From UHGV virus genome UHGV-0383551: a DNA stretch of 28,179 bases; one strand, written 5' to 3'. The position numbers were made by a program, and so were the translations under genes. Positions within the stretch are counted from its first letter, which is position 1, and every line of letters begins with the position of its first letter. The stretch is from a virus. The notes under the pieces were generated by a model. The model did not search any database. It was not told the origin of the DNA and saw only the letters and a program-made list of their open reading frames with translations. Positions 1-24,452 of the stretch are shown in pieces.

Positions 1-2085
1 ATTTATATCTTTGTTATATCCACTAACATTAATCCATCTTTTACCATCAATGTGATACCCGTAAATATTTCCGTCTGATTGTTCGTCAGGTGACTCTCTA
101 AGAACAATAGCATCTGCTCCAGACGACCATTGTATTTTTGTATCTGTAGGCCTCCAGTTCTTTATAATGAACGAACCATCAGTAAACTCCGTTTTTATTT
201 GTCTATTGTCTACAAATGCGTCTCTTGGTTTAAACTCACTTGTGTTAACGCTGCTCTGAAGATCAGAAGCAAAAAATCTAAGATTTCCTGTATAACCCTG
301 AGTCTCGGTCTGGTTATACGCAATCATAATTCCATTTTCAAACTCAGATGATGTTATTTTAACATCACGGCAATCACCAAAAATGCAATTTCCTTTATCA
401 AATGTTGTTTGAGCTTTGAATTTATCAAACCTTAAATTACGAACAGGGAAACCATCAACCTCTAATGCAAAGGATGCAGGAAGGCCAAAGTATTCTGATG
501 GCTTACCTGATGTATGATCAAGAGTAGTGGCTACTGTATTCTCAAAAACAGTCCCGCTAAAATTATTACCAATTGACGGAAACCTGATTACACTTATTGT
601 ACCTTGTATTTCAGGAGAAATACCAGATAGTGTGATGTTAGCTCCATCAAATGATGCATCTGAATACGTATATACTGATTCACTGCCAGCAATTTTAAAC
701 TGTTTAACTGAAGTTATTCTCATCGACTTTTTATGTTTAAATGTCACTGAGCTTTCAGTATTACTTACAAGATCAATCTGAGGGCTATTCCTTATCGCGA
801 TCCCTGACTGGACATAAACGTTATTAAAGTGCGTTTTTTCAGGATTTCCCTTCATTGAAAGGCTCCCGTCATTTTCTGTCAGTAGTAGTCCTTTTACCCT
901 CCAATAGCCGACAATCTGTACGTTATCAATAACTGAATCACAGCTATCGTATACATGCAACCCTATATCCCAGTCATCACCCAATGAATAAGAATCAGGG
1001 TTATTGTATCCTTCAATACCATTTTTACTTACCATTATTCTCAGGTTGCGTAACTGTGATGCCCTGTTGATACTAACAGCTACGCTCATGGCTTTTGGTG
1101 TAGCAGGAGTAACACCTACAGAATCTTCATTTGTAAACTCAGTGAACTTACAAGATATCCCTTCAACAATTTTAACTGGTCTTTCATTAGAGATGTTAAA
1201 AAAATATTTGTTTTTTTCTCCATCACCAGTAAATACAAGATGGGTTCCTTTACTCCAACTTTTTAATAATCTTTCAGGCGCTGGTCTATATGTATCCCAA
1301 TAATCAATGCCATCACCAATTAAAGACACTCCAGGAGGCACATCTATGTTCTTAGAAATCATCCATTTACCTGCAGGTATTCTAACGACACTTGCACCAG
1401 AATTTATCGCATTAATTAACCATTCAGACGCATCAACTTCAAAATTTAATGCAGCATATCTTTGCTCAAACGGAACAAAATCAAGAGCGTTAACGTTATC
1501 CCGCATCTTATCCTGGAACGTTCGGTATACTGCTCCAGAACCATACTGAATAAACCAACCAAAACCACCAACAACTCCGGCGATTGCAGCATCAACATAA
1601 TTGCGCATTGATCGATTATTTACAGCATCCTGCTCAAGTGATGGATCTGCAAGGTTAGAAATTTTGTTTTGCTTTGCATCGTAATATTTTGCAAGCAAAG
1701 ATGGTTTCATCAATGCACGTCTGAACCATCCAAAACATTGCTGGATCAGCATCGTCAGATAGTCAAAGGCATCTTCATGCACCTCGGGGAAAAATTTTCC
1801 CTGATTACGAAGATCAGTCTCCTGCACCACATCAAGCACACGATCTATCGTAATTCGCCATCCAGCAGCAAGCGGCGACGGAAGAACAACAGAACCGCCA
1901 CTATAAGTGCCCGCCCCTGTTACCGTATAACCGGTATCCAGAACCAATTCTGTTACGTTCCCGTTCAGGTCAGACACCTGAACAACCAGGTCGGATTTTT
2001 TGAAAATACGGAAGGTATACGGAAATGATGTCGTAGCTCCGTTACCTGTGTATTCGTTGTGGTCAACTTCGGTTGAGACCGTCAT
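1..2085 (-). CDS. Tailspike / receptor-binding tail protein, partial (start codon at 2085; ORF still open at window position 1, about 695 codons inside the window)
   Basis: Hand translation from ATG 2085 (GGAG about 8 nt upstream) gives MTVSTEVDHNEYTGNGATTSFPYTFRIFKKSDLVVQV..., which I recall as the conserved N-terminal particle-binding domain of epsilon15/phiV10-type tailspikes. The frame check at the window edge (codons ending ...GYHIDGKRWINVSGYNKDIN) is consistent with one uninterrupted frame. The distal part is AT-rich and Asn/Ser/Gly-rich, typical of beta-helix receptor-binding domains. The ORF track lists no minus-strand ORF here because the gene runs off the window. Confidence 0.65.
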   Translation of the reverse strand, partial: MTVSTEVDHNEYTGNGATTSFPYTFRIFKKSDLVVQVSDLNGNVTELVLDTGYTVTGAGTYSGGSVVLPSPLAAGWRITIDRVLDVVQETDLRNQGKFFPEVHEDAFDYLTMLIQQCFGWFRRALMKPSLLAKYYDAKQNKISNLADPSLEQDAVNNRSMRNYVDAAIAGVVGGFGWFIQYGSGAVYRTFQDKMRDNVNALDFVPFEQRYAALNFEVDASEWLINAINSGASVVRIPAGKWMISKNIDVPPGVSLIGDGIDYWDTYRPAPERLLKSWSKGTHLVFTGDGEKNKYFFNISNERPVKIVEGISCKFTEFTNEDSVGVTPATPKAMSVAVSINRASQLRNLRIMVSKNGIEGYNNPDSYSLGDDWDIGLHVYDSCDSVIDNVQIVGYWRVKGLLLTENDGSLSMKGNPEKTHFNNVYVQSGIAIRNSPQIDLVSNTESSVTFKHKKSMRITSVKQFKIAGSESVYTYSDASFDGANITLSGISPEIQGTISVIRFPSIGNNFSGTVFENTVATTLDHTSGKPSEYFGLPASFALEVDGFPVRNLRFDKFKAQTTFDKGNCIFGDCRDVKITSSEFENGIMIAYNQTETQGYTGNLRFFASDLQSSVNTSEFKPRDAFVDNRQIKTEFTDGSFIIKNWRPTDTKIQWSSGADAIVLRESPDEQSDGNIYGYHIDGKRWINVSGYNKDIN

Positions 2086-2188
2086 GTTAAATCTCCAGAT
2101 AGTCGCAGCACCCGTTGCGCCGCATATCTGGTTATTCTATTACCTGAAAAACCACATATGGATAGAAAGACTGTAAATACGAATAGAT

Positions 2189-2205
2189 ATTACCTTTCGG
2201 GTAAT
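2189..2205. promoter_or_regulatory. Inverted-repeat operator-like motif ATTACC-TTTCG-GGTAAT (copy 1 of 4)
   Basis: Read directly from the sequence. Sits in the divergent intergenic region between the tailspike start (2085, minus) and the small plus-strand gene (2281). Confidence 0.6.
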
Positions 2206-2243
2206 TTGCAAAACGTGCTGGATAGCAAACAAATTATTTGATA

Positions 2244-2259
2244 CTGTATAAATATACAG
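2244..2259 (+). promoter_or_regulatory. LexA (SOS) box CTGTATAAATATACAG
   Basis: Matches the CTGT-N8-ACAG consensus with an AT-rich spacer in 15 of 16 positions (with flanks: TACTGTATAAATATACAGTT). Lies 22-37 bp upstream of the ATG at 2281 and overlaps the likely promoter core. Confidence 0.75.
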
Positions 2260-2280
2260 TTATTACATGGAGAAGATAAG

Positions 2281-2538
2281 ATGCAGCAGTATCACTATCC
2301 ACTGGAAGACGGATTTACCGAAAGGATTCACACGCCGGGAGGCGTCAGGTCACTGGTGGAGGGATCGCACTTGATGAAATTACTCCGGGATCTCGATAAG
2401 GATGGATTTAATGTCGATGGCCCACTTGCCGAACTGACTGCACTGATTAACTACGTCACCAGCTCACAGATGTCTATGCAGGATCTACAAACACATCTCG
2501 ACTATTGTGCCGAACAATTACGAAAACAAACCAGATAA
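2281..2538 (+). CDS. Small (85 aa) LexA-controlled protein, paralogous to the C-terminal domain of the downstream Bro-N antirepressor; candidate SOS-inducible antirepressor (Tum/Gifsy-antirepressor-like logic)
   Basis: ORF with GGAG 8 nt upstream of the ATG and a LexA box immediately upstream. Residues GVRSLVEGSHLMKLLRDLDKDGFNVDGPLAELTALINYVTS...DLQTH align by eye with SGVLGLTENSLLMNLLNQLQEDGHDVSGAAAELTTMFCYIVG...DIQTH at the C-terminus of the 2851-3537 protein. Confidence 0.6.
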   Translation: MQQYHYPLEDGFTERIHTPGGVRSLVEGSHLMKLLRDLDKDGFNVDGPLAELTALINYVTSSQMSMQDLQTHLDYCAEQLRKQTR

Positions 2539-2568
2539 GGTTTGCAATTACCAAATGGAGTGCTTATA

Positions 2569-2585
2569 TTTACCTTTGCGGTAAA
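2569..2585. promoter_or_regulatory. Inverted-repeat motif TTTACC-TTTGC-GGTAAA (copy 2 of 4), nested inside a longer inverted repeat GGAGTGC...GCACTCC (2558-2600)
   Basis: Read directly from the sequence; lies between the small SOS gene and the antirepressor gene. Confidence 0.55.
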
Positions 2586-2677
2586 TTTACATCGCACTCC
2601 TCTTGTGCCATAGTAATCGGGCACTGGCAAAATCCAGTGCCGGGATTGGCGTCCCGAGTTACTACAGAGGCACATAT

Positions 2678-2697
2678 GCCGCATAAGCGGTTTTTTT
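2678..2697 (+). terminator. Weak intrinsic terminator or attenuator: short GC stem (CCGC-ATAA-GCGG) followed by seven T
   Basis: Hairpin plus T-tract seen in the sequence. The stem is only 4-5 bp, so termination efficiency is uncertain. Confidence 0.35.
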
Positions 2698-2850
2698 ATG
2701 TGTAAAGCGCACCTATTCTATGGTGGGCTGTGTGGGGGCACCGAAAGGTGCGCCGGGTCCTTTGTAGCCGGTTACGCCAACCCTGCACAGTTCACCACCA
2801 ACCGATTGGCGTCGGTAGTGGTGATTAACCTAACTACAAAGGTGATCGCT

Positions 2851-3537
2851 ATGACTGCTAACGTAACCCCATCTGTTTTTCATTTTGAATCAGAAGCAAC
2901 CATTCGAGCCATTGTTATTGATGGAAATCCTTGGTTTGTTGCCAAAGACGTTATTAAAGCTCTTCAACTGACAAACCCCACTATGTCAATAAAATCTCTT
3001 GATGATGATGAAAGGGCTAAATTTAACTTAGGCCGTCAAGGCGAAACCAATATTATCAACGAGTCAGGCCTCTACACACTGTTCCTCCGCTGCCGCGATG
3101 CGGTGACACCAGGCACTACCCCCTACCGCTTTCGTAAATGGGTTACAGGTGAGGTTCTTCCTCAGATCCGCCGCACCGGAAGCTACATTAAAAACTCGCT
3201 CCCGCAGGAAGAACGCATAAAGATGGTTGCCGACCAGGTAGCCAACGCCACGGCGTCAGCAGTAATGCAGGCGATGAAGATAGAGAACAAAACCTACAGC
3301 GCCCCGCTGAAGCCCGGCTACCGCAGTTTGATTCACTCGCCGTCTGGTGTTCTCGGCCTGACGGAGAACTCACTGCTGATGAATCTGCTGAACCAGTTAC
3401 AGGAAGACGGGCACGACGTATCGGGCGCGGCGGCGGAACTGACCACCATGTTCTGCTACATCGTCGGTGTGAGTAAATGCCTGCGTGATATCCAGACCCA
3501 CGCGGAATACATCAACGACAAGGCAGGGGTCTTCTGA
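2851..3537 (+). CDS. Phage antirepressor with N-terminal Bro-N domain (228 aa from ATG 2851; the track ORF begins further upstream at 2698)
   Basis: The internal ATG at 2851 has AAGGTG 8 nt upstream. The N-terminus SVFHFESEATIRAIVIDGNPWFVAKDVIKALQL...GLYTLFLRCRDAVTPGTTPYRFRKWVTGEVLPQIRRTGSY matches my memory of the Bro-N/AntA domain pattern. The C-terminal domain is paralogous to the 2281-2538 product. Confidence 0.75.
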   Translation: MTANVTPSVFHFESEATIRAIVIDGNPWFVAKDVIKALQLTNPTMSIKSLDDDERAKFNLGRQGETNIINESGLYTLFLRCRDAVTPGTTPYRFRKWVTGEVLPQIRRTGSYIKNSLPQEERIKMVADQVANATASAVMQAMKIENKTYSAPLKPGYRSLIHSPSGVLGLTENSLLMNLLNQLQEDGHDVSGAAAELTTMFCYIVGVSKCLRDIQTHAEYINDKAGVF

Positions 3538-3602
3538 CAGAACGGCGGCACAGGGATGTGCCTTTAAATAATTCTGTACAGATTGCAGGTGAATAGCGTA
3601 CT

Positions 3603-3618
3603 ATTACCCCAAAGGTAA
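3603..3618. promoter_or_regulatory. Inverted-repeat motif ATTACC-CCAAA-GGTAA (copy 3 of 4), about 120 bp upstream of the two-gene cassette
   Basis: Read directly from the sequence. Confidence 0.55.
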
Positions 3619-3735
3619 GAAAGTTGATTTGTAACATTTTAGTTTGTAGTTACCGTGATGGTTTTGCTGCAGAAAGTTAACTAGTCAAAATCACACCGTA
3701 TGTAAGTCACGTCTGTTCCCGTATGGGAGGATGAT

Positions 3736-3954
3736 ATGTTTAAATTTGATATGCAACTCAACCAAAACTATGCCTCTTTTTACCATCCAGAAACTGGTAA
3801 AGCTGTTTTCGTTGACTCTTTCGATAATGAAGAATTTGATATCAGAATTGGGACCCTACGCCAAAGTAAGCATGTTGCTACTGTACGTGCATCCAATGAT
3901 GATGAATTAAATCAAAAAATAAGTGAGGCGACCTCCCGTTATCTATGTCTATAA
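3736..3954 (+). CDS. Hypothetical protein, 72 aa; first gene of an AT-rich two-gene accessory cassette
   Basis: ORF with a strong Shine-Dalgarno (GGGAGG 7 nt upstream). Overlaps the next gene by 10 nt. I recognise no domain. Confidence 0.55.
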   Translation: MFKFDMQLNQNYASFYHPETGKAVFVDSFDNEEFDIRIGTLRQSKHVATVRASNDDELNQKISEATSRYLCL

Positions 3955-4322
3955 CAGAACAACAACTCATTGATCTTGAGGATGAGATTAACGAGATCTT
4001 GCAAGAAGATGCGGCAAGAATTCACTTTTCATTTCACGCAGCATATGAACGCCTGAACGACGAGAGGAACAAACCGCCAATTACTCTTGCTGAGCTTGAA
4101 GATGTGTTTAAATCGTTTATATCTGCACATCTGCAGACTGTTTTGGATTTTGCTGAAGGTACAACTTTCACCATAAAGTGCAACAAAAGCGCCCTTCATT
4201 TTCCTTGCGCCATTGTACACGAAAGAGAGTTTGGGAAAACGTGGGTTATCCAAAACGTCATTACAGCCATGAGGAAAGTGGGATTCAAGTCTAAAGATTC
4301 TATTATCCTCGAAGTTAATTAA
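3945..4322 (+). CDS. Hypothetical protein, 125 aa, with an acidic N-terminal segment; second gene of the cassette
   Basis: The ATG at 3945 overlaps the stop of the upstream gene, suggesting translational coupling. An intrinsic terminator follows directly. I recognise no domain. Confidence 0.55.
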   Translation: MSITEQQLIDLEDEINEILQEDAARIHFSFHAAYERLNDERNKPPITLAELEDVFKSFISAHLQTVLDFAEGTTFTIKCNKSALHFPCAIVHEREFGKTWVIQNVITAMRKVGFKSKDSIILEVN

Positions 4323-4343
4323 GCCCGCACTGAGGGCTTTTTT
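4322..4343 (+). terminator. Intrinsic terminator (AGCCC-GCACTGA-GGGCT followed by TTTTT)
   Basis: Hairpin plus T-tract immediately after the stop codon at 4320-4322. Confidence 0.65.
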
Positions 4344-4415
4344 ATGGACGAAACAAAAGTCAGTGCTACACTCATTGACGCCACATTGAGGTGGCTTATA
4401 GATGGAAATTTCACA

Positions 4416-4577
4416 ATGAAAAAAGCATTTGCTGCACTGTTCGTTTTGTTGTCTCTGGTAGCTTCAACTCAGGCCTTTGCCGGTCGTTGTCAGCACGACA
4501 GCGACACTGCTGCTGACGGCTCCCGCTGCGGTGGGCGTTCTGCGGATTCCCGCCCGGGTGGCGGTGGCATTCGTTAA
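4416..4577 (+). CDS. Possible small secreted peptide (53 aa precursor) with a signal-peptide-like N-terminus MKKAFAALFVLLSLVASTQAFA and a Gly/Arg/Cys-containing mature part
   Basis: Internal ATG of track ORF 4344-4577. Very typical signal peptide with an AxA cleavage motif, but the RBS is weak and the ORF overlaps other open frames in a GC-rich stretch. Confidence 0.3.
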   Translation: MKKAFAALFVLLSLVASTQAFAGRCQHDSDTAADGSRCGGRSADSRPGGGGIR

Positions 4578-4599
4578 AAACAAGGCCGCGAAAGCGGCC
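4573..4599 (-). terminator. Intrinsic terminator ending the minus-strand virion operon (GGCCGC-GAAA-GCGGCC, T-tract on the minus strand)
   Basis: Perfect 6-bp GC stem with a GAAA loop. The plus-strand A-run at 4576-4580 gives the U-tract for the minus-strand transcript. Sits just downstream of the lipoprotein stop at 4609. Confidence 0.7.
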
Positions 4600-4600
4600 T

Positions 4601-4612
4601 GTGACATGTCAC
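4601..4612. repeat. 12-bp perfect palindrome GTGACATGTCAC (copy 1 of 3)
   Basis: Read directly. Its TCA triplet supplies the TGA stop of the minus-strand lipoprotein gene. Confidence 0.6.
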
Positions 4613-4989
4613 GCAACGCAATTATTACCGCGCCATGTAACATTTTTAATAATCTTATCAGCACCAAACTCAACGTAAACAGAGCAACTGAAATGGAGTG
4701 TATAACCGCCATCAGTTGTTGCGTATGTGTTTGAATATATAGTATTACCAATTAGATTAGACGTAGTATTATACGTTGTGGTTTGTGGTACGTTATAACT
4801 ACCAGAGCTTGAGTAAACATACACTCTGTTTCCATCTGGAGATGTAAGCTCTCCCTGAGGATACCCCCACTGCTGAACCATTGCGTCTATACTCTGCCCG
4901 CGCCACGTAAGCATATTTCTTTCAAACTGTGCAGCTGACTGGCATCCAACGAGAAGCATAAATCCAAAAATCAAAAATACTTTTCTCAT
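4609..4989 (-). CDS. Predicted lipoprotein (126 aa from ATG 4989), signal peptide MRKVFLIFGFMLLVGC with lipobox LVGC
   Basis: The internal ATG has AGGGG about 6 nt upstream; the track ORF starts at GTG 5025. Classic lipoprotein signal and lipobox cysteine. Last gene of the minus-strand late operon. Confidence 0.6.
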   Translation of the reverse strand: MRKVFLIFGFMLLVGCQSAAQFERNMLTWRGQSIDAMVQQWGYPQGELTSPDGNRVYVYSSSGSYNVPQTTTYNTTSNLIGNTIYSNTYATTDGGYTLHFSCSVYVEFGADKIIKNVTWRGNNCVA

Positions 4990-5074
4990 AATTACCCCTA
5001 TCATGGAAAAACAGCACCAATCCACAAATTAACTAGTTATTTTATTATTCTTCCGAACAATACAATTCCGAATA

Positions 5075-5197
5075 CTACAAAGCCGAACCATGCCGCTGCA
5101 CGCAACAGAGATTCCAATTGAAACCCATTTTTATCAAAATGTATGAATAGCATAAAAACGCTGCACATATTAGTACAATAAAAGTTATTTGAACCAT
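5075..5197 (-). CDS. Small hydrophobic membrane peptide, about 40 aa (MVQITFIVLICAAFLCYSYILIKMGFNWNLCCVQRHGSAL); frame assignment ambiguous
   Basis: Not in the ORF track because it is under 60 aa. AAGGAG sits immediately after the stop of the 824-aa gene and 5 nt before the ATG at 5197. The alternative track ORF 5037-5225 in another frame also encodes a hydrophobic segment but has no RBS. Confidence 0.35.
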   Translation of the reverse strand: MVQITFIVLICAAFLCYSYILIKMGFNWNLCCVQRHGSAL

Positions 5198-5208
5198 CAT
5201 ATCTCCTT

Positions 5209-7683
5209 TTATTGCGGAGTGACATCCTGTGGTCGCCACCAGTATGTCTGGTTAAACTCTTTCTTCGAACGTTGCTCCATTTTACGCAAATAGCCTGGTG
5301 AAAAATACTCCTGCATCTGGTTAAAGATCATGTGATCGAGAGCCGCCTTCAAGTACCAGAGATTCGCACCAGGCATCAAACCTTTCCCCAGCTTCACCAG
5401 ATCACCACCAGTCTGCTCACTCTTCCCTTCCACAGCATTTAACGGTATGCCCTGAGCAATCTTCACTACGTCATCAACCAGACCAGCTACCGGGCCAAGC
5501 ATCGACGCCAGCGCGCCGCTTCCGTACCTAGTGTGATCTGACAATAAAAAGTCACCGTAAAGGCCAAGACCACCACCTTTCAGTAGAGCACCAAGCCAGA
5601 ATTTTGCGGCATCTTCTCCTGTCATCTCTCGAGGATTACGACCAGACGCAAGGTCGTTAAGTTGCTGCGACAAAGCGCCAAGAATGGTCGTACTGGCAAT
5701 AAACGTCGCAATATATGCCGCACGCCCACCAGCAGACGGCATACCCATAGCGCGTGACCAGTGACGCATAACAACCGAGATAGGGAACGATTTAAACAGG
5801 AAAACACTTCTCGTTAATTCACCTTTCCATGTTCCACGCTGAATACCAGAACCGGTTATCAGTTGCTCACGTGCTCCCGGTGTAATAACAGCCATATCAA
5901 CTTCTTCAGTTACGGCACCGAGCAGTTTACGCATTGCCTCAAATTTCACGCGTTCAGGCTCACCAAGATGTTTAACTGCTGAATCAGAGATACGCATAAT
6001 GCTTTCCGGTGTCAGCATCGTATTATTACCGTTCCCCCAGTCCTCCTGTTTCGCCAGCTTCCATACGCTCCAGTCTGTGTCAGTAATCCCTTTGCTTTTC
6101 AGGATACGAAAATCAGAGTCATCGAGGCTACGAAGGTCTGGTGTCCGTGACACTACTTCTCCCAGGCTTCCCATCATGGTTACGCCATAGGCGCGCTTGT
6201 GCGCATCTGACCATGCTGTAAGCCCACTGGCACGCATTACCGCCGTTGCCGCCCAACGAGACACTGACGGCCCCATATTATCCATCGCCCAGCGGTTAAC
6301 GCTGCCAAGTAGAGATTCCATCGCCAGACCAGCGCGGCGCGCCCGCGCAAGTTCTGTACGGTTCGTTGGGTCCATAGCTTCAAGCTGGTTGCGGAATAAC
6401 TGGTTCATTGGAAGGTTGGTAACCTTCGCAGACAGATACATGGTTCCAAGATCAGAGAACGATGACAGCAACGCGGATCCGAGTCTGCTGGCAACCAGCC
6501 AGTTGCGGATATTGTCAGACCATCGCGCGATGTGCGGATTCGCTACAGGCTGTGTCTTTCCGGAAATAAAGTTGTACAGATTCTCTGTGTTGTTCGCCAG
6601 CCGCTCGACTTTACCGGTTTTACTCGGGTTAGCTGTTGCCGTTTCTGCCTTCACCTGATCAAGAAGAGAGCGGAAAACATGATCGGGGTTTGGGCCATAT
6701 GTTTCCACCAGTGCAATATCTTTACTGATACCTTCCAGGTGACCGACCATGATTTCCCATAGAGAGCGATCGCCATAAAGTTGCTGATATTGCAGATAGG
6801 AATCTGCATCTTTGAAATGTATCTGTCGTGATGCATTACCACGGTTAGCACGTGCGCCGGAAATTCGCATTCCGGTATCAGTAAGCTTATTCAGCCCACC
6901 AGTAGCGATCGTGTTATAAGCCTCTCCAAGAAATGAAGACAACTCGGCATCGTTCATCAGTTGTCCATCGGCTCGGATATAATATTTGCGATCCAGCTTA
7001 CCTATAACATCGCTAACCCACTTATCCTTTGATACTGCCCCAACCTTTTCCATAGAATGATGTTGAGGGATCCCCCAGTTTTCGAGATAGCCAATGTCCC
7101 CACCAGCATCATTAAACCGGCGGCGCAGCAGCTCTGTAACTTCTCTCCACGCCTTAGCACCGTTTCTTGCTTTAGCATTGCCAGTATTTTGCCCCCGCAT
7201 TTCATATACCAGGTCACGTACGCCCGCTTCATCTTCAAACAGACCAAAAAAGCGAGGATCAACTGCTTCGAATGCCTCCTGCAATTGACTCAATGCATAA
7301 TCACGGGTGGCTTTTGTTCTGGATTCAACAGAGAGGAAATTAGATTTACCGTCTGCATTAAAAGCTATAGTACGGTTAAGAGCGCCAAGTTTCCCATCAG
7401 CCCCTTGATAGCTATTGATAAATTTATCCAATCTCTGACGCGCGGCTATAGTGAGAGCCACACGACGTTTCTTTAATGCCGCTTCTCGCTGTAATTCTTC
7501 AGATGCCAATTGTGCTGCTCGATATAGCCGCTCTGATTCGGAAAGTTGTCGCCACGACATAGGGTCATCACGAGCAATGGAGCGCATATTTCGATAAATG
7601 CGGTCTTCAATGTTCTGTATTTCTCGCGCCGTTAACATGCGCTGCGCCGCCTGCTGAACCGCTTGTATACATTCCTGTCTCAT
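5209..7683 (-). CDS. Large internal virion / ejection protein (824 aa); by position, the distal part of a T7 gp16-like function
   Basis: Long ORF in the virion operon after the other internal proteins. Assignment is by synteny and size only. Confidence 0.5.
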   Translation of the reverse strand: MRQECIQAVQQAAQRMLTAREIQNIEDRIYRNMRSIARDDPMSWRQLSESERLYRAAQLASEELQREAALKKRRVALTIAARQRLDKFINSYQGADGKLGALNRTIAFNADGKSNFLSVESRTKATRDYALSQLQEAFEAVDPRFFGLFEDEAGVRDLVYEMRGQNTGNAKARNGAKAWREVTELLRRRFNDAGGDIGYLENWGIPQHHSMEKVGAVSKDKWVSDVIGKLDRKYYIRADGQLMNDAELSSFLGEAYNTIATGGLNKLTDTGMRISGARANRGNASRQIHFKDADSYLQYQQLYGDRSLWEIMVGHLEGISKDIALVETYGPNPDHVFRSLLDQVKAETATANPSKTGKVERLANNTENLYNFISGKTQPVANPHIARWSDNIRNWLVASRLGSALLSSFSDLGTMYLSAKVTNLPMNQLFRNQLEAMDPTNRTELARARRAGLAMESLLGSVNRWAMDNMGPSVSRWAATAVMRASGLTAWSDAHKRAYGVTMMGSLGEVVSRTPDLRSLDDSDFRILKSKGITDTDWSVWKLAKQEDWGNGNNTMLTPESIMRISDSAVKHLGEPERVKFEAMRKLLGAVTEEVDMAVITPGAREQLITGSGIQRGTWKGELTRSVFLFKSFPISVVMRHWSRAMGMPSAGGRAAYIATFIASTTILGALSQQLNDLASGRNPREMTGEDAAKFWLGALLKGGGLGLYGDFLLSDHTRYGSGALASMLGPVAGLVDDVVKIAQGIPLNAVEGKSEQTGGDLVKLGKGLMPGANLWYLKAALDHMIFNQMQEYFSPGYLRKMEQRSKKEFNQTYWWRPQDVTPQ

Positions 7684-21283: not shown

Positions 21284-21299
21284 ATTACCTTTCAGGTAA
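21284..21299. promoter_or_regulatory. Inverted-repeat motif ATTACC-TTTCA-GGTAA (copy 4 of 4)
   Basis: Read directly from the sequence; about 90-105 bp upstream of the minus-strand ORF start at 21194. Confidence 0.55.
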
Positions 21300-21621: not shown

Positions 21622-21698
21622 GTGGCATTAGCTCAGTTGGACAGAGCAACCGCCTTCTAAGCGGTTGGTCGCAGGTTCGAATCCTGCATGCCACGCCA
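21622..21698 (+). tRNA. tRNA-Arg, anticodon UCU (reads AGA), 77 nt including CCA
   Basis: Folded by hand: 7-bp acceptor stem GTGGCAT/ATGCCAC, D-arm GCTC...GAGC, anticodon stem ACCGC/GCGGT with loop CTTCTAA, T-arm GCAGG-TTCGAATC-CTGC, discriminator G, encoded CCA. The acceptor stem differs from my recollection of host argU, suggesting a phage-borne copy. Confidence 0.85.
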
Positions 21699-23819: not shown

Positions 23820-24412
23820 TGATTACCATCCTGACGTTCTTTGAGTCGCTTCCTGGCTGCTGCTATGCGATCAGCAATTGTCACATTCACATTAACATCC
23901 AGACGTTCTTTGAACGCGTTGACATCAACATGCTTACCAATCAGCTCAAGGTTCTTCACCTTGTCAGGCCATTTAATTTTTTTGAGGATTGTCTCTATCG
24001 AATCCTCGTTCATGTTCATGATGGTCGATGACAGATCAAAGCCACTAAGCGTAGTGCGCCAGATTTTCGGCCACTCACGGATTGGTTTAAGGCTCCCATC
24101 GTCGTTGAGGATGTCGATCACGTCCATCTGGTCGATCTGCACCAGGCGCATGAGAACGTAATCAGCACTGACGCGCATTCGTTTGTTGCGCTCCTCCATC
24201 AACTCGGCAATCCGTTTTTGAATGCGTTCATCGCGCATCATGACACTGGCTTTAACTGCCGCTGTATTTGGGGAGAATCCTGCGTTAATCGCTGCCTGAG
24301 TCTGGTTTTCAGGCGTTTTGATGTATGACTGGCAATAAGCCTCCTGCATTGCTGTTAGTGGCTTAAATTGCGTTGATTTGCGTTTATAGGTTTTAGGTTC
24401 AGCAGGCATCAT
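23816..24412 (-). CDS. Terminase small subunit (about 198 aa from the ATG-ATG at 24412; the track ORF extends to 24490)
   Basis: Segment KPLTAMQEAYCQSYIKTPENQTQAAINAGFSPNTAAVKASVMMRDERIQKRIAELMEE resembles phage small terminase subunits, and the gene sits directly upstream of the large subunit. The internal start has a GGTGG RBS; the longer start would run through the intergenic repeats. Confidence 0.7.
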   Translation of the reverse strand: MMPAEPKTYKRKSTQFKPLTAMQEAYCQSYIKTPENQTQAAINAGFSPNTAAVKASVMMRDERIQKRIAELMEERNKRMRVSADYVLMRLVQIDQMDVIDILNDDGSLKPIREWPKIWRTTLSGFDLSSTIMNMNEDSIETILKKIKWPDKVKNLELIGKHVDVNAFKERLDVNVNVTIADRIAAARKRLKERQDGNQ

Positions 24413-24420
24413 AACCACCG

Positions 24421-24452
24421 TGGTAATAGTTACCGTTTTGGTAATAGTACCA
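24421..24452. repeat. Tandem copies of TGGTAATAGT (24421-24430 and 24439-24448), each within a GGTAA...TACC inverted repeat, immediately upstream of the small terminase start
   Basis: Read directly. A 10-mer repeated within 30 bp is not statistically striking alone; noted because of its position and because it shares GGTAA/TTACC half-sites with the ATTACC-N5-GGTAA motif. Confidence 0.35.

What the first reader, a model, noticed from the sequence alone, without database searches (positions are those of the whole stretch)
2244..3537. SOS-controlled small protein paralogous to the C-terminal domain of the adjacent Bro-N antirepressor
A near-consensus LexA box (CTGTATAAATATACAG, 15 of 16 positions of the ideal palindrome) lies 22-37 bp upstream of an 85-aa ORF. 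That protein aligns along most of its length with the C-terminal roughly 65 residues of the next gene product, which has a clear Bro-N N-terminal domain. This matches the known logic of LexA-regulated antirepressors (coliphage 186 Tum, Gifsy-type antirepressors), where the prophage repressor is inactivated by an SOS-induced protein rather than by RecA-mediated autocleavage. The unusual point is the paired arrangement: a free-standing copy of the putative repressor-binding domain under LexA control, next to a full Bro-N fusion separated from it by a structured leader.
Basis: partly seen in the sequence, partly recalled or inferred. Interest (0 to 1): 0.65.

Follow-up and report, generated by a model that had tools for sequence, protein, structure and literature searches.

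The report
Dual antirepressor switch of a prophage
An E. coli prophage of the epsilon15 type carries two genes for proteins that inactivate its repressor: a small one released by DNA damage, already known from a Salmonella relative, and a larger one held in check by a small antisense RNA, and both use the same repressor-targeting domain.

Summary
The window is an epsilon15-like (Uetakevirus) E. coli prophage. The LexA box (2244-2259) is real and conserved in position across relatives. The 85-aa ORF (2281-2538) is the ortholog, 88% identical, of Salmonella phage SPC32H Ant (PDB 5D50), a characterised LexA-controlled antirepressor, so the core is already known. The next gene (2851-3537) is a Bro-N protein. 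Its C-terminal 78 residues are 40% identical to Ant (E 8e-16).

The "structured leader" is two known RNA families: IsrK (2621-2697) and C4 antisense RNA (2716-2802), as in P1 immI and Gifsy-1 isrK-anrP. The C4 loops are exactly complementary to the Shine-Dalgarno region of the Bro-N gene. The loops and all four targets co-vary in five classes across 82 classifiable loci of 85 surveyed, on phages whose repressor is 100% identical.

A palindrome, TTACC-N5-GGTAA, flanks rep in relatives and abuts the isrK promoter here. It is probably the Rep operator.

The new elements are one shared repressor-targeting domain under two controls (LexA and antisense RNA) and C4 diversification on an invariant Rep. 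The arrangement is common: 121 of 5426 complete E. coli genomes. It is a new variant of known kinds, of moderate interest.

The parts
2190..2204 (.). TTACC-N5-GGTAA palindrome (site 1), the probable Rep operator, in the tailspike-ant intergenic region
   Evidence: The motif occurs 6 times in the window against 0.44 expected. It sits at the same position relative to the ant ATG in 7 of 9 relatives, with variable spacers. The homologous copy in the epsilon15 RefSeq record is annotated protein_bind 'repressor; lysogeny'. The same motif occurs three times on each side of rep in SPC32H and flanks rep in ZX5.
2219..2247 (+). Putative ant promoter (-35 TGGATA 2219-2224, -10 TACTGT 2242-2247), read by eye; inferred only
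   Evidence: The block TGCTGGATAG and the hexamer TACTGT are conserved in E. coli, Salmonella and Enterobacter relatives. The automatic sigma-70 scan did not call a promoter here.
2242..2261 (.). LexA box (SOS box); 16-mer core CTGTATAAATATACAG at 2244-2259
   Evidence: It matches the consensus 20-mer at 18 of 20 positions and is unique in the window, with none in 100 shuffles. CTGT-N8-ACAG is kept exactly 21 nt from the ATG in 7 loci although the spacer sequence varies. In Klebsiella phages the box reads ATGT-N8-ACAG.
2281..2538 (+). ant: an 85-aa stand-alone antirepressor, the ortholog of SPC32H Ant
   Evidence: phmmer against the PDB gives 5D50_E 'Anti-repressor protein', E 4.1e-47, residues 2-84. 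tblastn identity to SPC32H ant is 88%. The gene sits in the same place, between tailspike and ejection-protein genes, as in SPC32H.
2558..2600 (+). Imperfect inverted repeat GGAGTGC...GCACTCC enclosing operator site 2, just downstream of the ant stop codon
   Evidence: The RNA fold shows the hairpin at -21.6 kcal/mol, z = -1.96. In phiV10 it is a perfect 18-bp palindrome. Its role is unknown and it has no U-tract.
2570..2584 (.). TTACC-N5-GGTAA palindrome (site 2), the probable Rep operator at the isrK/C4 promoter
   Evidence: The layout ATTACC-N5-GGTAAATTTACA is conserved in all 6 annotated loci with different spacers and is present upstream of C4 in 49 of 54 IMG/VR loci. It abuts two sigma-70-like promoters.
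2586..2614 (+). Putative isrK promoter: TTTACA, 17-nt spacer, CATAGT with an upstream TG. A second candidate, TTGCAA-17-TATATT, lies at 2542-2570.
   Evidence: Promoter scan. The predicted transcription start near 2621 coincides with position 1 of the isrK covariance model. The sequence is conserved in relatives.
2621..2697 (+). IsrK-like small RNA, equivalent to the a1/b1 target region of C4 (b1 UUGGCGU 2646-2652, a1 CUACAGAGG 2662-2670), ending in an intrinsic terminator at 2678-2697
   Evidence: Rfam RF01394 scores 74.2 bits (gathering score 50). It overlaps RF03163 c4-a1b1, which scores 44.3 bits (gathering score 46.7). The terminator was found by the scan.
2716..2802 (+). C4-type antisense RNA (a' loop CCUUUGUAG 2759-2767, b' ACGCCAA 2774-2780)
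   Evidence: Rfam RF01695 scores 79.5 bits (gathering score 45) over the full-length model.
2806..2850 (+). C4 target sites on the Bro-N mRNA leader: b2 UUGGCGU 2806-2812 and a2 CUACAAAGG 2834-2842, the latter overlapping the Shine-Dalgarno AAGGUGA 2839-2845
   Evidence: The exact complement of the 9-nt a' loop occurs only once on the + strand of the 28-kb window, at 2834. The sets a'/a1/a2 and b'/b1/b2 co-vary in three states each across 82 classifiable loci of 85 surveyed.
2851..3537 (+). bro-ant: a 228-aa antirepressor with a Bro-N domain (residues 18-104, nt 2902-3162) and an Ant-like C-terminal domain (residues 147-224, nt 3289-3522)
   Evidence: Pfam Bro-N, E 3.8e-19. The C-terminal domain matches 5D50_E at E 1e-13. 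An AlphaFold2 model of the C-terminal domain (pLDDT 78) has 5D50_G and 5D50_H as its only PDB matches with E below 5 (probability 1.0, TM 0.58-0.73). The protein is 81% identical to ZX5 ORF4, and the C-terminal domain is identical apart from one residue. Overexpression of ZX5 ORF4 reduced lysogeny about 1000-fold (PMC9782041).
3547..3562 (+). GC-rich hairpin GGCACAGGGATGTGCC followed by TTTAAATAATT; a possible weak terminator of the bro-ant transcript
   Evidence: Read from the sequence. The terminator scan did not call it.
3604..3618 (.). TTACC-N5-GGTAA palindrome (site 3), the probable Rep operator upstream of the cargo genes that start at 3736
   Evidence: ZX5 has a copy at the equivalent position with a different spacer.

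Best explanation
The region is the antirepressor (secondary immunity) region of an epsilon15-like E. coli prophage. It holds two antirepressor genes that share one effector domain but respond to different inputs.

1. ant (2281-2538) is repressed by host LexA at the box 2244-2259. DNA damage leads to LexA cleavage, and Ant is made. By homology to SPC32H Ant, Ant binds as a tetramer to the phage repressor Rep. Rep has no autocleavage domain. Ant binding takes the Rep tetramer apart and releases it from its TTACC-N5-GGTAA operators, so the prophage is induced.

2. bro-ant (2851-3537) carries the same Ant-type domain fused to a Bro-N domain. It is transcribed from a promoter that abuts a Rep operator (2570-2584). 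The transcript either terminates as the 77-nt IsrK-like RNA or reads through into C4 RNA and bro-ant. The a' loop and b' segment of C4 pair with a2 and b2 immediately upstream of bro-ant, and a2 covers its Shine-Dalgarno sequence, so translation is blocked. IsrK carries mimic sites a1 and b1 and can titrate C4. This is the logic of the P1/P7 immI operon (C1 operator plus c4 RNA controlling ant) and of Gifsy-1 isrK-anrP.

In a lysogen bro-ant would therefore be doubly locked. It could act as an amplifier once Rep falls. It could also act as an anti-immunity function when a phage with a non-matching C4 class superinfects.

Basis of each step:
- Shown in orthologs by others: the LexA/Ant/Rep mechanism in SPC32H, and the pro-lytic effect of ZX5 ORF4.
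- Shown here by sequence analysis: the homologies, the RNA families, the loop-target complementarity with covariation, and the operator motif statistics.
- Inferred: LexA and Rep binding in this prophage, binding of the Bro-N C-terminal domain to Rep, the sign and timing of the RNA control, and the biological role of bro-ant.
For: Evidence for ant as the SOS-controlled antirepressor:
- Ant matches 5D50_E at E 4e-47 with 88% identity. It has the same genomic position as SPC32H ant.
- The LexA box is unique in the window. Its position is conserved while its spacer sequence varies.
- Literature: LexA-controlled Ant inactivates Rep (PMC7380047). [quoted passage not shown]
- Rep of the nearest relatives is SPC32H-type with HTH domains only and no S24 peptidase. 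It is 100% identical in 15 E. coli phage records, including KM389360, which matches the window's ant region at 99.9%.

Evidence for the shared domain in bro-ant:
- Paralogy: E 8e-16, the same phrog_450 profile, and the fold match of the C-terminal-domain model to 5D50 only.
- The Ant-type domain is a shuffled C-terminal module. It is fused to AntA, Bro-N, Phage_pRha, ORF6N and P22_AR_N domains.
- Overexpression of ZX5 ORF4, which has an essentially identical C-terminal domain, lowered lysogens from 1e9 to 1e6 and reduced rep mRNA by 75% (PMC9782041).

Evidence for the RNA control:
- isrK and C4 score above their Rfam gathering thresholds.
- The 9-nt complement of the a' loop is unique in the window and overlaps the Shine-Dalgarno sequence.
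- Three a' states and three b' states each have exactly matching a1, a2, b1 and b2. They form five combinations across 82 classifiable loci of 85 surveyed.

Evidence for the operator:
- The motif occurs 6 times against 0.44 expected in the window, 18 against 0.74 in SPC32H and 14 against 0.72 in ZX5, and it clusters around rep.
- The epsilon15 record annotates the homologous copy as a repressor site.
- P1 analogy: the c4-icd-ant operon is repressed by C1 and additionally by C4 RNA (PMC8198154).
Against: - No experiment on this prophage exists, and rep is not inside the window.
- The primary SPC32H papers could not be read. The SPC32H mechanism therefore rests on citing papers, the PDB entry and my own recall.
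- The stand-alone Ant and the Bro-N C-terminal domain are only 40% identical, so they need not bind the same surface or the same repressor.
- The phiV10 copy of the Bro-N gene is frameshifted inside the C-terminal domain, so the gene is dispensable for at least one viable phage.
- In Gifsy-1, IsrK acts as an activator through an upstream ORF (PMC4825925), not simply as a C4 decoy.
- The operator abuts the -35 hexamer of the isrK promoter (centre near -44). That position is compatible with repression but also with activation.
- The promoter of ant could not be called automatically.
Confidence: 0.75

Rival explanations
1. bro-ant does not act on the phage's own Rep. Its diverged Ant-type domain (40% identical to Ant) would target repressors of other co-resident prophages, giving Gifsy-type trans-acting crosstalk. 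Alternatively the Bro-N domain would provide a different, DNA-directed function, and the C-terminal domain would serve only for oligomerisation.
For: - Identity to Ant is only 40%.
- Ant is far more conserved than Rep across genera. E. coli and Salmonella Ant are 88% identical while their Rep proteins are 42% identical, so specificity rules are unclear.
- Trans-acting antirepressors are documented in Salmonella (PMC3121763, listed; PMC7380047).
- Stand-alone proteins of the C-terminal-domain type occur outside this locus: next to int in an E. coli prophage, and in a Klebsiella AlpA/HicAB islet.
Against: - Overexpression of ZX5 ORF4, with the same C-terminal domain, shifted ZX5 itself away from lysogeny.
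- Sixteen residues are invariant across both subfamilies.
- The C-terminal domain co-occurs with the SPC32H-type Rep in every phage examined.
- The promoter is flanked by the phage's own operator motif.
Confidence: 0.15
2. The leader works as in the Gifsy-1 model rather than the P1 model. The read-through transcript would fold into a translationally inactive structure. The short IsrK RNA would act in trans as an activator that opens the ribosome-binding site of a small upstream ORF, and translation of that ORF would be coupled to the antirepressor gene. C4 would not be a trans-acting repressor.
For: - The isrK model scores 74 bits.
- An ATG directly follows the IsrK terminator in all loci.
- Gifsy-1 data show a 139-fold activation of anrP translation by IsrK in trans (PMC4825925).
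- The leader is strongly structured (z = -4.2).
Against: - The upstream ORF is not conserved in length or frame. It is fused in frame with the Bro-N gene (the 279-aa ORF) in the window and is 24, 24, 24, 4 and 37 codons long in five relatives.
- Here a2 overlaps the Shine-Dalgarno sequence of the Bro-N gene itself.
- The three-way covariation of a'/a1/a2 and b'/b1/b2 is what a C4 antisense specificity system predicts.
- The Gifsy-1 authors themselves note a processed RNA (STnc1160) complementary to IsrK.
- The two models are not exclusive, because IsrK acting as a decoy for C4 gives the same sign of regulation.
Confidence: 0.2
3. TTACC-N5-GGTAA is not the Rep operator. It would be the site of another phage regulator, for example a late-gene activator, or a structural or packaging-related repeat. 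In that case the isrK/C4/bro-ant unit is not under Rep control.
For: - Copies also lie upstream of late genes: the small terminase gene (24412 and 24430), the portal operon (21285) and the tailspike gene (2190).
- No binding data were accessible.
- The site lies upstream of the -35 hexamer of the isrK promoter rather than over the -10 hexamer.
Against: - Three copies lie on each side of rep in SPC32H, and copies flank rep in ZX5. That is the classic arrangement of left and right operators.
- The epsilon15 record labels the homologous copy a repressor binding site.
- Dispersed operators that include the antirepressor operon have a precedent in the P1 C1 repressor.
Confidence: 0.12

Closest known systems
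Rep-Ant antirepression system of Salmonella phage SPC32H (Kim & Ryu 2013 J Virol; Kim et al. 2016 PNAS; PDB 5D50 and 5D4Z)
   Same: - ant is the ortholog: 88% identical, the same length and the same position between the tailspike and ejection-protein genes.
- The LexA box lies at the same distance from the ATG.
- Rep in the nearest relatives is of the same family and has no S24 peptidase domain.
- The operator motif is the same.
   Different: - SPC32H and epsilon15 have ant alone. They have no IsrK, no C4 and no Bro-N fusion.
- Rep is only about 42% identical between the E. coli and Salmonella phages.
immI operon of phages P1 and P7 (c4 antisense RNA, icd, ant1/2; operator of the C1 repressor at the promoter)
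   Same: - A C4-family RNA lies upstream of an antirepressor gene.
- The a' and b' elements are complementary to sites both upstream (a1, b1) and downstream (a2, b2).
- A repressor operator sits at the promoter.
- The RNA specificity varies on a constant repressor background, as between P1 and P7.
   Different: - There is no icd gene. a2 covers the ribosome-binding site of the antirepressor gene itself.
- The antirepressor protein is unrelated to P1 Ant.
- The host phage is an integrating podovirus, not a plasmid myovirus.
- A separate LexA-controlled copy of the effector domain lies next to it.
isrK-orf45-anrP locus of the Salmonella prophage Gifsy-1 (PMC4825925)
   Same: - An IsrK RNA with its own terminator.
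- Read-through into a C4-like RNA (STnc1160).
- An antirepressor gene follows.
   Different: - The orf45 equivalent is not conserved here.
- No antQ-type target is known in this phage.
- The antirepressor here carries the SPC32H Ant domain.
LexA-controlled antirepressors: coliphage 186 Tum and the Gifsy and Fels-2 antirepressors (PMC3121763)
   Same: The logic is the same: an SOS box in front of a small antirepressor gene, and a repressor that cannot be cleaved.
   Different: No sequence relationship was detected. The Ant family found here is small, with 63 clusters in 1.84 billion representatives, and its fold matches only 5D50.
immI region of phage P22 (mnt, arc, ant, sar RNA)
   Same: It occupies the same genomic neighbourhood, between the ejection-protein and tailspike genes, and encodes an antirepressor as secondary immunity. 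The relative TL-2011b carries in addition a P22_AR_N::Ant-domain gene with an Arc-like repressor gene and a sar RNA.
   Different: The window has no arc, mnt or sar. Control is by LexA and C4 instead.
ORF4 anti-repressor of E. coli phage vB_EcoP_ZX5 (PMC9782041)
   Same: It is 81% identical overall, and the C-terminal domain is identical apart from one residue. ZX5 has the same locus layout, including ant, IsrK and C4.
   Different: - The Bro-N domain is diverged.
- The C4 a' class differs: CCUUUUAG in ZX5 and CCUUUGUAG in the window.
- The paper treats ORF4 as the only antirepressor and does not mention LexA, the small Ant or the RNAs.

Membership tests
SPC32H-type Ant antirepressor (PDB 5D50 chains E-H; phrog_450) | Full-length sequence homology to SPC32H Ant in a stand-alone protein of about 86 aa | tested here: met
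   E 4.1e-47 over residues 2-84 of 85. Identity is 88%. phrog_450 E 9e-48.
SPC32H-type Ant antirepressor (PDB 5D50 chains E-H; phrog_450) | LexA box in the promoter region | tested here: met
   The box matches the consensus at 18 of 20 positions and is unique in the window. Its position is conserved in relatives, including SPC32H. This is a sequence-level test only.
SPC32H-type Ant antirepressor (PDB 5D50 chains E-H; phrog_450) | LexA actually binds and represses, and the gene is induced by DNA damage | not testable with these tools
   This needs a gel shift and reporter assays.
SPC32H-type Ant antirepressor (PDB 5D50 chains E-H; phrog_450) | Cognate repressor of the SPC32H Rep family, without a peptidase S24 autocleavage domain | tested here: met
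   rep lies outside the window. In ZX5, Rep matches 5D50_A at E 4e-42 and has HTH domains only. The identical Rep is on KM389360, which matches the window's ant region at 99.9%.
SPC32H-type Ant antirepressor (PDB 5D50 chains E-H; phrog_450) | Tetramer that binds Rep and releases it from DNA | not testable with these tools
   Only single-chain structure prediction is available, and Rep is not a window sequence.
Ant-type domain as the C-terminal module of the Bro-N protein | Significant sequence and fold similarity of residues 147-224 to Ant | tested here: met
   BLASTP E 8e-16. 5D50_E E 1e-13. phrog_450 E 5e-36. In the Foldseek search 5D50_G and 5D50_H are the only PDB matches with E below 5. 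Sixteen columns are invariant across both subfamilies.
BRO-N family (Pfam PF02498) | N-terminal Bro-N domain above the Pfam gathering score | tested here: met
   69.5 bits against a cut-off of 25.6. The AlphaFold2 model is confident over residues 10-110.
C4 antisense RNA (Rfam RF01695; P1/P7 immI type) | Covariance-model score above the gathering threshold over the full model | tested here: met
   79.5 bits against 45, model positions 1-87.
C4 antisense RNA (Rfam RF01695; P1/P7 immI type) | The a' and b' elements are complementary to target sites upstream (a1, b1) and downstream (a2, b2) on the same transcript, and the downstream site occludes a ribosome-binding site | tested here: met
   Exact complements lie at 2646, 2662 (with one G-U pair), 2806 and 2834, and a2 overlaps the Shine-Dalgarno sequence. 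Covariation is seen in 82 classifiable loci of 85 surveyed.
C4 antisense RNA (Rfam RF01695; P1/P7 immI type) | An icd-like ORF between C4 and ant whose translation is the direct target | tested here: not met
   There is no conserved ORF between C4 and the Bro-N gene. The target is the antirepressor's own ribosome-binding site.
C4 antisense RNA (Rfam RF01695; P1/P7 immI type) | Processing from the precursor transcript by RNase P, and repression in trans | not testable with these tools
   This needs Northern blots, RNA-end mapping and genetics.
IsrK RNA (Rfam RF01394; Gifsy-1 type) | Covariance-model score above threshold, with a rho-independent terminator | tested here: met
   74.2 bits against 50. 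The terminator is at 2678-2697.
IsrK RNA (Rfam RF01394; Gifsy-1 type) | A downstream small ORF (orf45) translationally coupled to the antirepressor gene | tested here: inconclusive
   An ATG follows the terminator in all loci. The ORF is fused in frame with the Bro-N gene (279-aa ORF) in the window and is 24, 24, 24, 4 and 37 codons long in five relatives, and its frame is not conserved.
P22-type immI (arc/mnt/ant/sar) | Arc or Mnt repressor genes and a sar antisense RNA next to ant | tested here: not met
   No sar or other immI RNA was found in the window. No Arc or Mnt family was found among the neighbouring ORFs. These elements are present in the relative TL-2011b only.

The most novel reading that the evidence does not exclude
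In the E. coli epsilon15-like phages, immunity specificity may have moved from the repressor protein to the antisense RNA. Rep is 100% identical in the 15 E. coli phage records found and in the 80 best-matching IMG/VR contigs. The recognition loops of C4 and IsrK, together with all four of their targets, have diversified into at least five matched classes. Under this reading bro-ant would be an anti-immunity weapon: a superinfecting phage whose C4 class differs from the resident's could express it, inactivate the shared Rep, and grow on or induce the lysogen. The same Rep-targeting domain is wired separately to LexA for SOS induction, and in TL-2011b a third time to an Arc/sar module. One protein 'warhead' would thus sit behind two or three orthogonal input channels.
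Probability: 0.4. Interest if true: 0.6.

Novelty: new variant of a known kind. Interest (0 to 1): 0.4.

Why it matters
Each component has a precedent. The LexA-controlled Ant is known from SPC32H, and C4/IsrK-controlled antirepressors are known from P1, P7 and Gifsy-1. The region is therefore not a new kind of system.

Several points appear to be undescribed in the literature I could search:
- The effector domain of a widespread class of 'Bro-N antirepressors' is the SPC32H Ant fold.
- One phage deploys this domain twice, under protein (LexA) control and under RNA (C4/IsrK) control.
- The RNA specificity has diversified while the repressor stays invariant.

This has practical consequences:
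- It gives an immediate functional annotation to phrog_450, now labelled 'unknown function', and to many 'hypothetical' 85-aa genes.
- It corrects a frequent mis-call, the 279-aa ORF that runs over the C4 RNA.
- It offers a tractable E. coli system (phiV10, ZX5 and natural C4 classes) for testing RNA-based heteroimmunity and prophage induction with OR-gate logic. These phages are also used as reporter phages for E. coli O157.

Tried and rejected
- The primary papers were not held: Kim & Ryu 2013, Kim et al. 2016, the epsilon15 genome paper and the P1 genome paper. I relied on citing papers, the PDB entry and record annotations.
- The word-indexed protein searches with the 85-aa protein and with the C-terminal domain returned only close relatives, almost all short stand-alone proteins or fragments. 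The one fusion listed was a partial AntA protein. The exhaustive profile search and the full-length query were needed to see the fusion architectures.
- I tried to locate the exact host genome through the window's early region, in order to read its own rep. The region is mosaic and no record covers 80% or more of it.
- The AlphaFold2 model of the full 228-aa protein had a C-terminal domain of low confidence (pLDDT 36-64), so it was not used for fold search. The domain was modelled alone instead.
- Whole-molecule RNA duplex energy of C4 against its downstream target did not discriminate from shuffles: 47 of 500 shuffles did as well. Exact loop complementarity and covariation were used instead.
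- The automatic promoter scan did not find an ant promoter. The -10 hexamer I first guessed, downstream of the LexA box (TATTAC 2261-2266), was rejected because the transcript would start inside the Shine-Dalgarno sequence.
- I rejected the 279-aa reading frame that starts at 2698, because the upstream part is not conserved as coding sequence.
- I considered that the inverted repeat at 2558-2600 terminates ant transcription. This is unsupported: there is no U-tract and z is only -1.96.


Full report
**What the window is.** The 28-kb window is most of an epsilon15-like (genus Uetakevirus) E. coli prophage, read in reverse. The tailspike gene is on the minus strand and its start codon is at 2084. 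The region of interest follows on the plus strand. After it come the ejection-protein, structural and terminase genes and some early genes on the minus strand. The stretch 2085-3735 is 99.9% identical to Escherichia phage Phi05_1387 B. It is 92-96% identical, in pieces, to ZX5, TL-2011b and phiV10. The repressor gene lies beyond the end of the window.

**Check of the observation.** The LexA box CTGTATAAATATACAG is at 2244-2259, 22-37 nt upstream of the ATG at 2281.
- The 20-mer at 2242-2261 matches the E. coli consensus at 18 of 20 positions. It is the only such site in the window, and 100 shuffles gave none.
- The 85-aa protein aligns without gaps with residues 147-224 of the next protein. 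Identity is 40% and BLASTP E is 8e-16.
- The next protein has a Pfam Bro-N domain, E 3.8e-19.
- All parts of the observation are confirmed.

**The small protein is a known antirepressor.** It matches chain E of PDB 5D50, 'Anti-repressor protein', at E 4e-47. It is 88% identical to the annotated ant of Salmonella phage SPC32H, and it occupies the same place between the tailspike and ejection-protein genes.
- Papers that cite the original work state two things. In these phages LexA cleavage allows synthesis of an Ant that inactivates the repressor by protein-protein contact (PMC7380047). [quoted passage not shown]
- The primary papers were not available to me. Further detail, such as Ant binding to the C-terminal domains of Rep, is from my own recall.
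- The LexA box is kept exactly 21 nt from the ATG in E. coli, Salmonella and Enterobacter relatives while its 8-nt spacer varies. Klebsiella relatives have ATGT-N8-ACAG. This conservation pattern supports function.
ZX5 Rep is homologous to SPC32H Rep (5D50_A, E 4e-42) and has only HTH domains. This Rep is 100% identical in 15 E. coli phage records, including Phi05_1387 B.

**The second protein.** The C-terminal domain of the Bro-N protein also hits 5D50_E (E 1e-13) and the same PHROG profile as Ant, phrog_450, which is labelled 'unknown function'.
- An AlphaFold2 model of the domain alone has pLDDT 78. 5D50_G and 5D50_H are its only PDB matches with E below 5, with probability 1.0 and TM 0.58-0.73. 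The full-length model was confident only for the Bro-N part.
- An exhaustive profile search found only 63 clusters of this domain in 1.84 billion representative proteins. They are either stand-alone proteins of 82-95 aa or the C-terminus of larger proteins.
- The N-terminal partners are AntA, Bro-N, Phage_pRha and ORF6N. In TL-2011b the partner is P22_AR_N. The Ant domain is thus a mobile effector module within the known domain shuffling of phage antirepressors.
- The Bro-N fusion is widespread in Enterobacterales.
- ZX5 ORF4 is 81% identical to the window's protein, and its C-terminal domain is identical apart from one residue. Overexpressing it lowered lysogens about 1000-fold and lowered rep mRNA by 75% (PMC9782041). 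That paper does not mention LexA, the small Ant or the RNAs.

**The structured leader.** Rfam finds isrK at 2621-2697 (74.2 bits, gathering score 50), overlapping the c4-a1b1 family. It finds C4 antisense RNA at 2716-2802 (79.5 bits, gathering score 45). An intrinsic terminator ends IsrK at 2678-2697.
- The 9-nt a' loop of C4 (CCUUUGUAG, 2759-2767) has a single exact complement on the plus strand of the window. It lies at 2834-2842, overlapping the Shine-Dalgarno AAGGUGA of the Bro-N gene, and it ends 8 nt before the ATG at 2851.
- The b' segment (ACGCCAA, 2774-2780) is complementary to 2806-2812 and, inside IsrK, to 2646-2652. IsrK also carries an a1 site at 2662-2670.
- I surveyed 85 loci: the window, five annotated phages and 79 IMG/VR contigs. 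The a' loop occurs in three states (CCUUUGUAG, CCUUUUAG, CCACUUAG) and b' in three states (ACGCCAA, AGACCAA, GUGCAAA). They form five combinations, found 28, 19, 17, 13 and 5 times. Three loci could not be classified.
- In every classified locus a1, a2, b1 and b2 carry the matching complement. This three-way covariation is strong evidence that the pairing is functional.
- The small ORF that follows the IsrK terminator is not conserved. It is fused in frame with the Bro-N gene (the 279-aa ORF) in the window and is 24, 24, 24, 4 and 37 codons long in five relatives. The 279-aa ORF from 2698, which many gene callers report, is therefore probably an artefact.

**A probable Rep operator.** The palindrome TTACC-N5-GGTAA occurs six times in the window against 0.44 expected. 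Three of the copies are in this region, at 2190, 2570 and 3604.
- In SPC32H it occurs three times on each side of rep, and it also lies upstream of late operons and in the ant-tailspike spacer. ZX5 shows the same pattern.
- The epsilon15 RefSeq record annotates the homologous copy as a repressor binding site.
- The copy at 2570-2584 lies between two sigma-70-like promoters. It abuts the -35 hexamer of TTTACA-17-CATAGT, whose predicted start coincides with position 1 of the isrK model. This layout is conserved with variable spacers.
- The parallel is P1, where the c4-icd-ant operon is repressed by C1 and additionally by C4 RNA (PMC8198154).
- Binding of Rep to these sites is inferred, not shown.

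**Most likely mechanism.** There are two inputs.
- First, DNA damage removes LexA from the ant promoter, Ant is made, and Rep is inactivated.
- Second, bro-ant is locked in the lysogen by Rep at its promoter and by C4 pairing over its ribosome-binding site. IsrK carries mimic sites and can titrate C4. That is consistent with the activating effect of IsrK in Gifsy-1 (PMC4825925).
- bro-ant could amplify induction once Rep falls, or act when the phage infects a cell whose resident prophage makes a non-matching C4.
- The second idea is supported by a notable pattern. All five C4 classes occur on contigs whose Rep is 100% identical (23 of 24 cross-matched contigs could be classified). P1 and P7 show the same relation: they differ in c4 but not in C1 specificity (own knowledge).
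- The role of the Bro-N domain is unknown.

**Rivals.**
- bro-ant may target other repressors, since it is only 40% identical to Ant and trans-acting antirepressors are known.
- The leader may work by the Gifsy-1 upstream-ORF coupling mechanism.
- The palindrome may bind another regulator.
- phiV10 has a frameshift inside the C-terminal domain, so bro-ant is dispensable for that phage.

**Novelty and verdict.** The SOS-controlled Ant is already known, and the RNA module belongs to known families. The arrangement is common: 80% or more of 2085-3735 is present in 121 of 5426 complete E. coli genomes. SPC32H, epsilon15 and a Klebsiella relative have ant alone. In the literature I could search I found no description of three points. 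These are the homology between Ant and the Bro-N C-terminal domain, the dual deployment of that domain under LexA and C4 control, and C4 diversification on an invariant Rep. I rate the region a new variant of known kinds, of moderate interest.

Noticed in passing
window 2698-2850 (5' part of the 279-aa ORF 2698-3537): The ORF that starts right after the IsrK terminator runs in frame over the C4 RNA into the Bro-N gene. Many automatic gene calls in public data report this 279-aa product, and ZX5 annotates a 37-aa 'ash family protein' at the same place. The reading frame is not conserved among relatives, so these are probably mis-annotations of an RNA gene.
   Followed up: yes
L001 (phiV10) 3267-3946: The Bro-N antirepressor gene of phiV10 is frameshifted inside the Ant-like C-terminal domain. 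It is annotated as a 194-aa gene plus a separate 29-aa ORF. This well-known phage therefore probably lacks a functional second antirepressor.
   Followed up: partly
L002 (TL-2011b) 5973-7157, and 2976-4064: TL-2011b carries a third copy of the Ant-type domain. It is fused to a P22_AR_N domain (314 aa), next to an Arc-like repressor gene and a sar antisense RNA (RF00262). The phage also has an insertion of about 1.1 kb between ant and isrK that leaves the operator and the TTTACA promoter intact.
   Followed up: partly
window 21285-21299 and 24412-24444: Further TTACC-N5-GGTAA palindromes lie upstream of the portal operon and, as a tandem pair, immediately upstream of the small terminase start codon. 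If they are Rep operators, Rep would directly control late operons through dispersed sites, as the P1 C1 repressor does.
   Followed up: partly
L094-L173 (IMG/VR) and phage records: The 194-aa Rep is 100% identical in all 80 best IMG/VR contigs and in 15 E. coli phage records. Ant is 88% identical between the E. coli and Salmonella phages although their Rep proteins are only about 42% identical. The antirepressor is much more conserved than its presumed target.
   Followed up: partly
L011 4001-4294; L012-L014 4001-4288: Stand-alone proteins of the Bro-N C-terminal-domain subtype occur elsewhere. A 97-aa one is the last gene before int in an E. coli epsilon15-like prophage at guaA. A 95-aa one lies in a small Klebsiella islet with an AlpA-like regulator and HicAB, possibly a satellite that uses it to induce a helper phage.
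   Followed up: no
window 3736-5225: The cargo between bro-ant and the ejection-protein genes consists of several small genes. There is an overlapping 72-aa/125-aa gene pair (phrog_14630 and phrog_14518, function unknown). There is a 77-aa protein with an apparent signal peptide (phrog_14503, 'membrane associated protein', moron). On the minus strand there is a 138-aa apparent lipoprotein and a 62-aa hydrophobic ORF. This content differs between relatives; TL-2011b has a YafO toxin gene here.
   Followed up: partly
window 21622-21698: A tRNA-Arg (anticodon TCT) gene lies on the plus strand between the terminase and portal genes, as in SPC32H.
   Followed up: yes
window 1064, 17272, 21814, 26905: The loose pattern CTGT-N8-ACAG occurs five times in the window against 0.46 expected. 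The four sites other than the ant box lack the AT-rich spacer of LexA boxes and lie inside or near coding regions. The excess is unexplained.
   Followed up: no
window 2558-2600; L001 (phiV10), between the ant stop codon (2954) and isrK (3034): The operator at the isrK promoter is embedded in a longer inverted repeat. The repeat is imperfect in the window and a perfect 18-bp palindrome in phiV10. It lies just after the ant stop codon, and whether it affects read-through from ant into isrK is unknown.
   Followed up: partly
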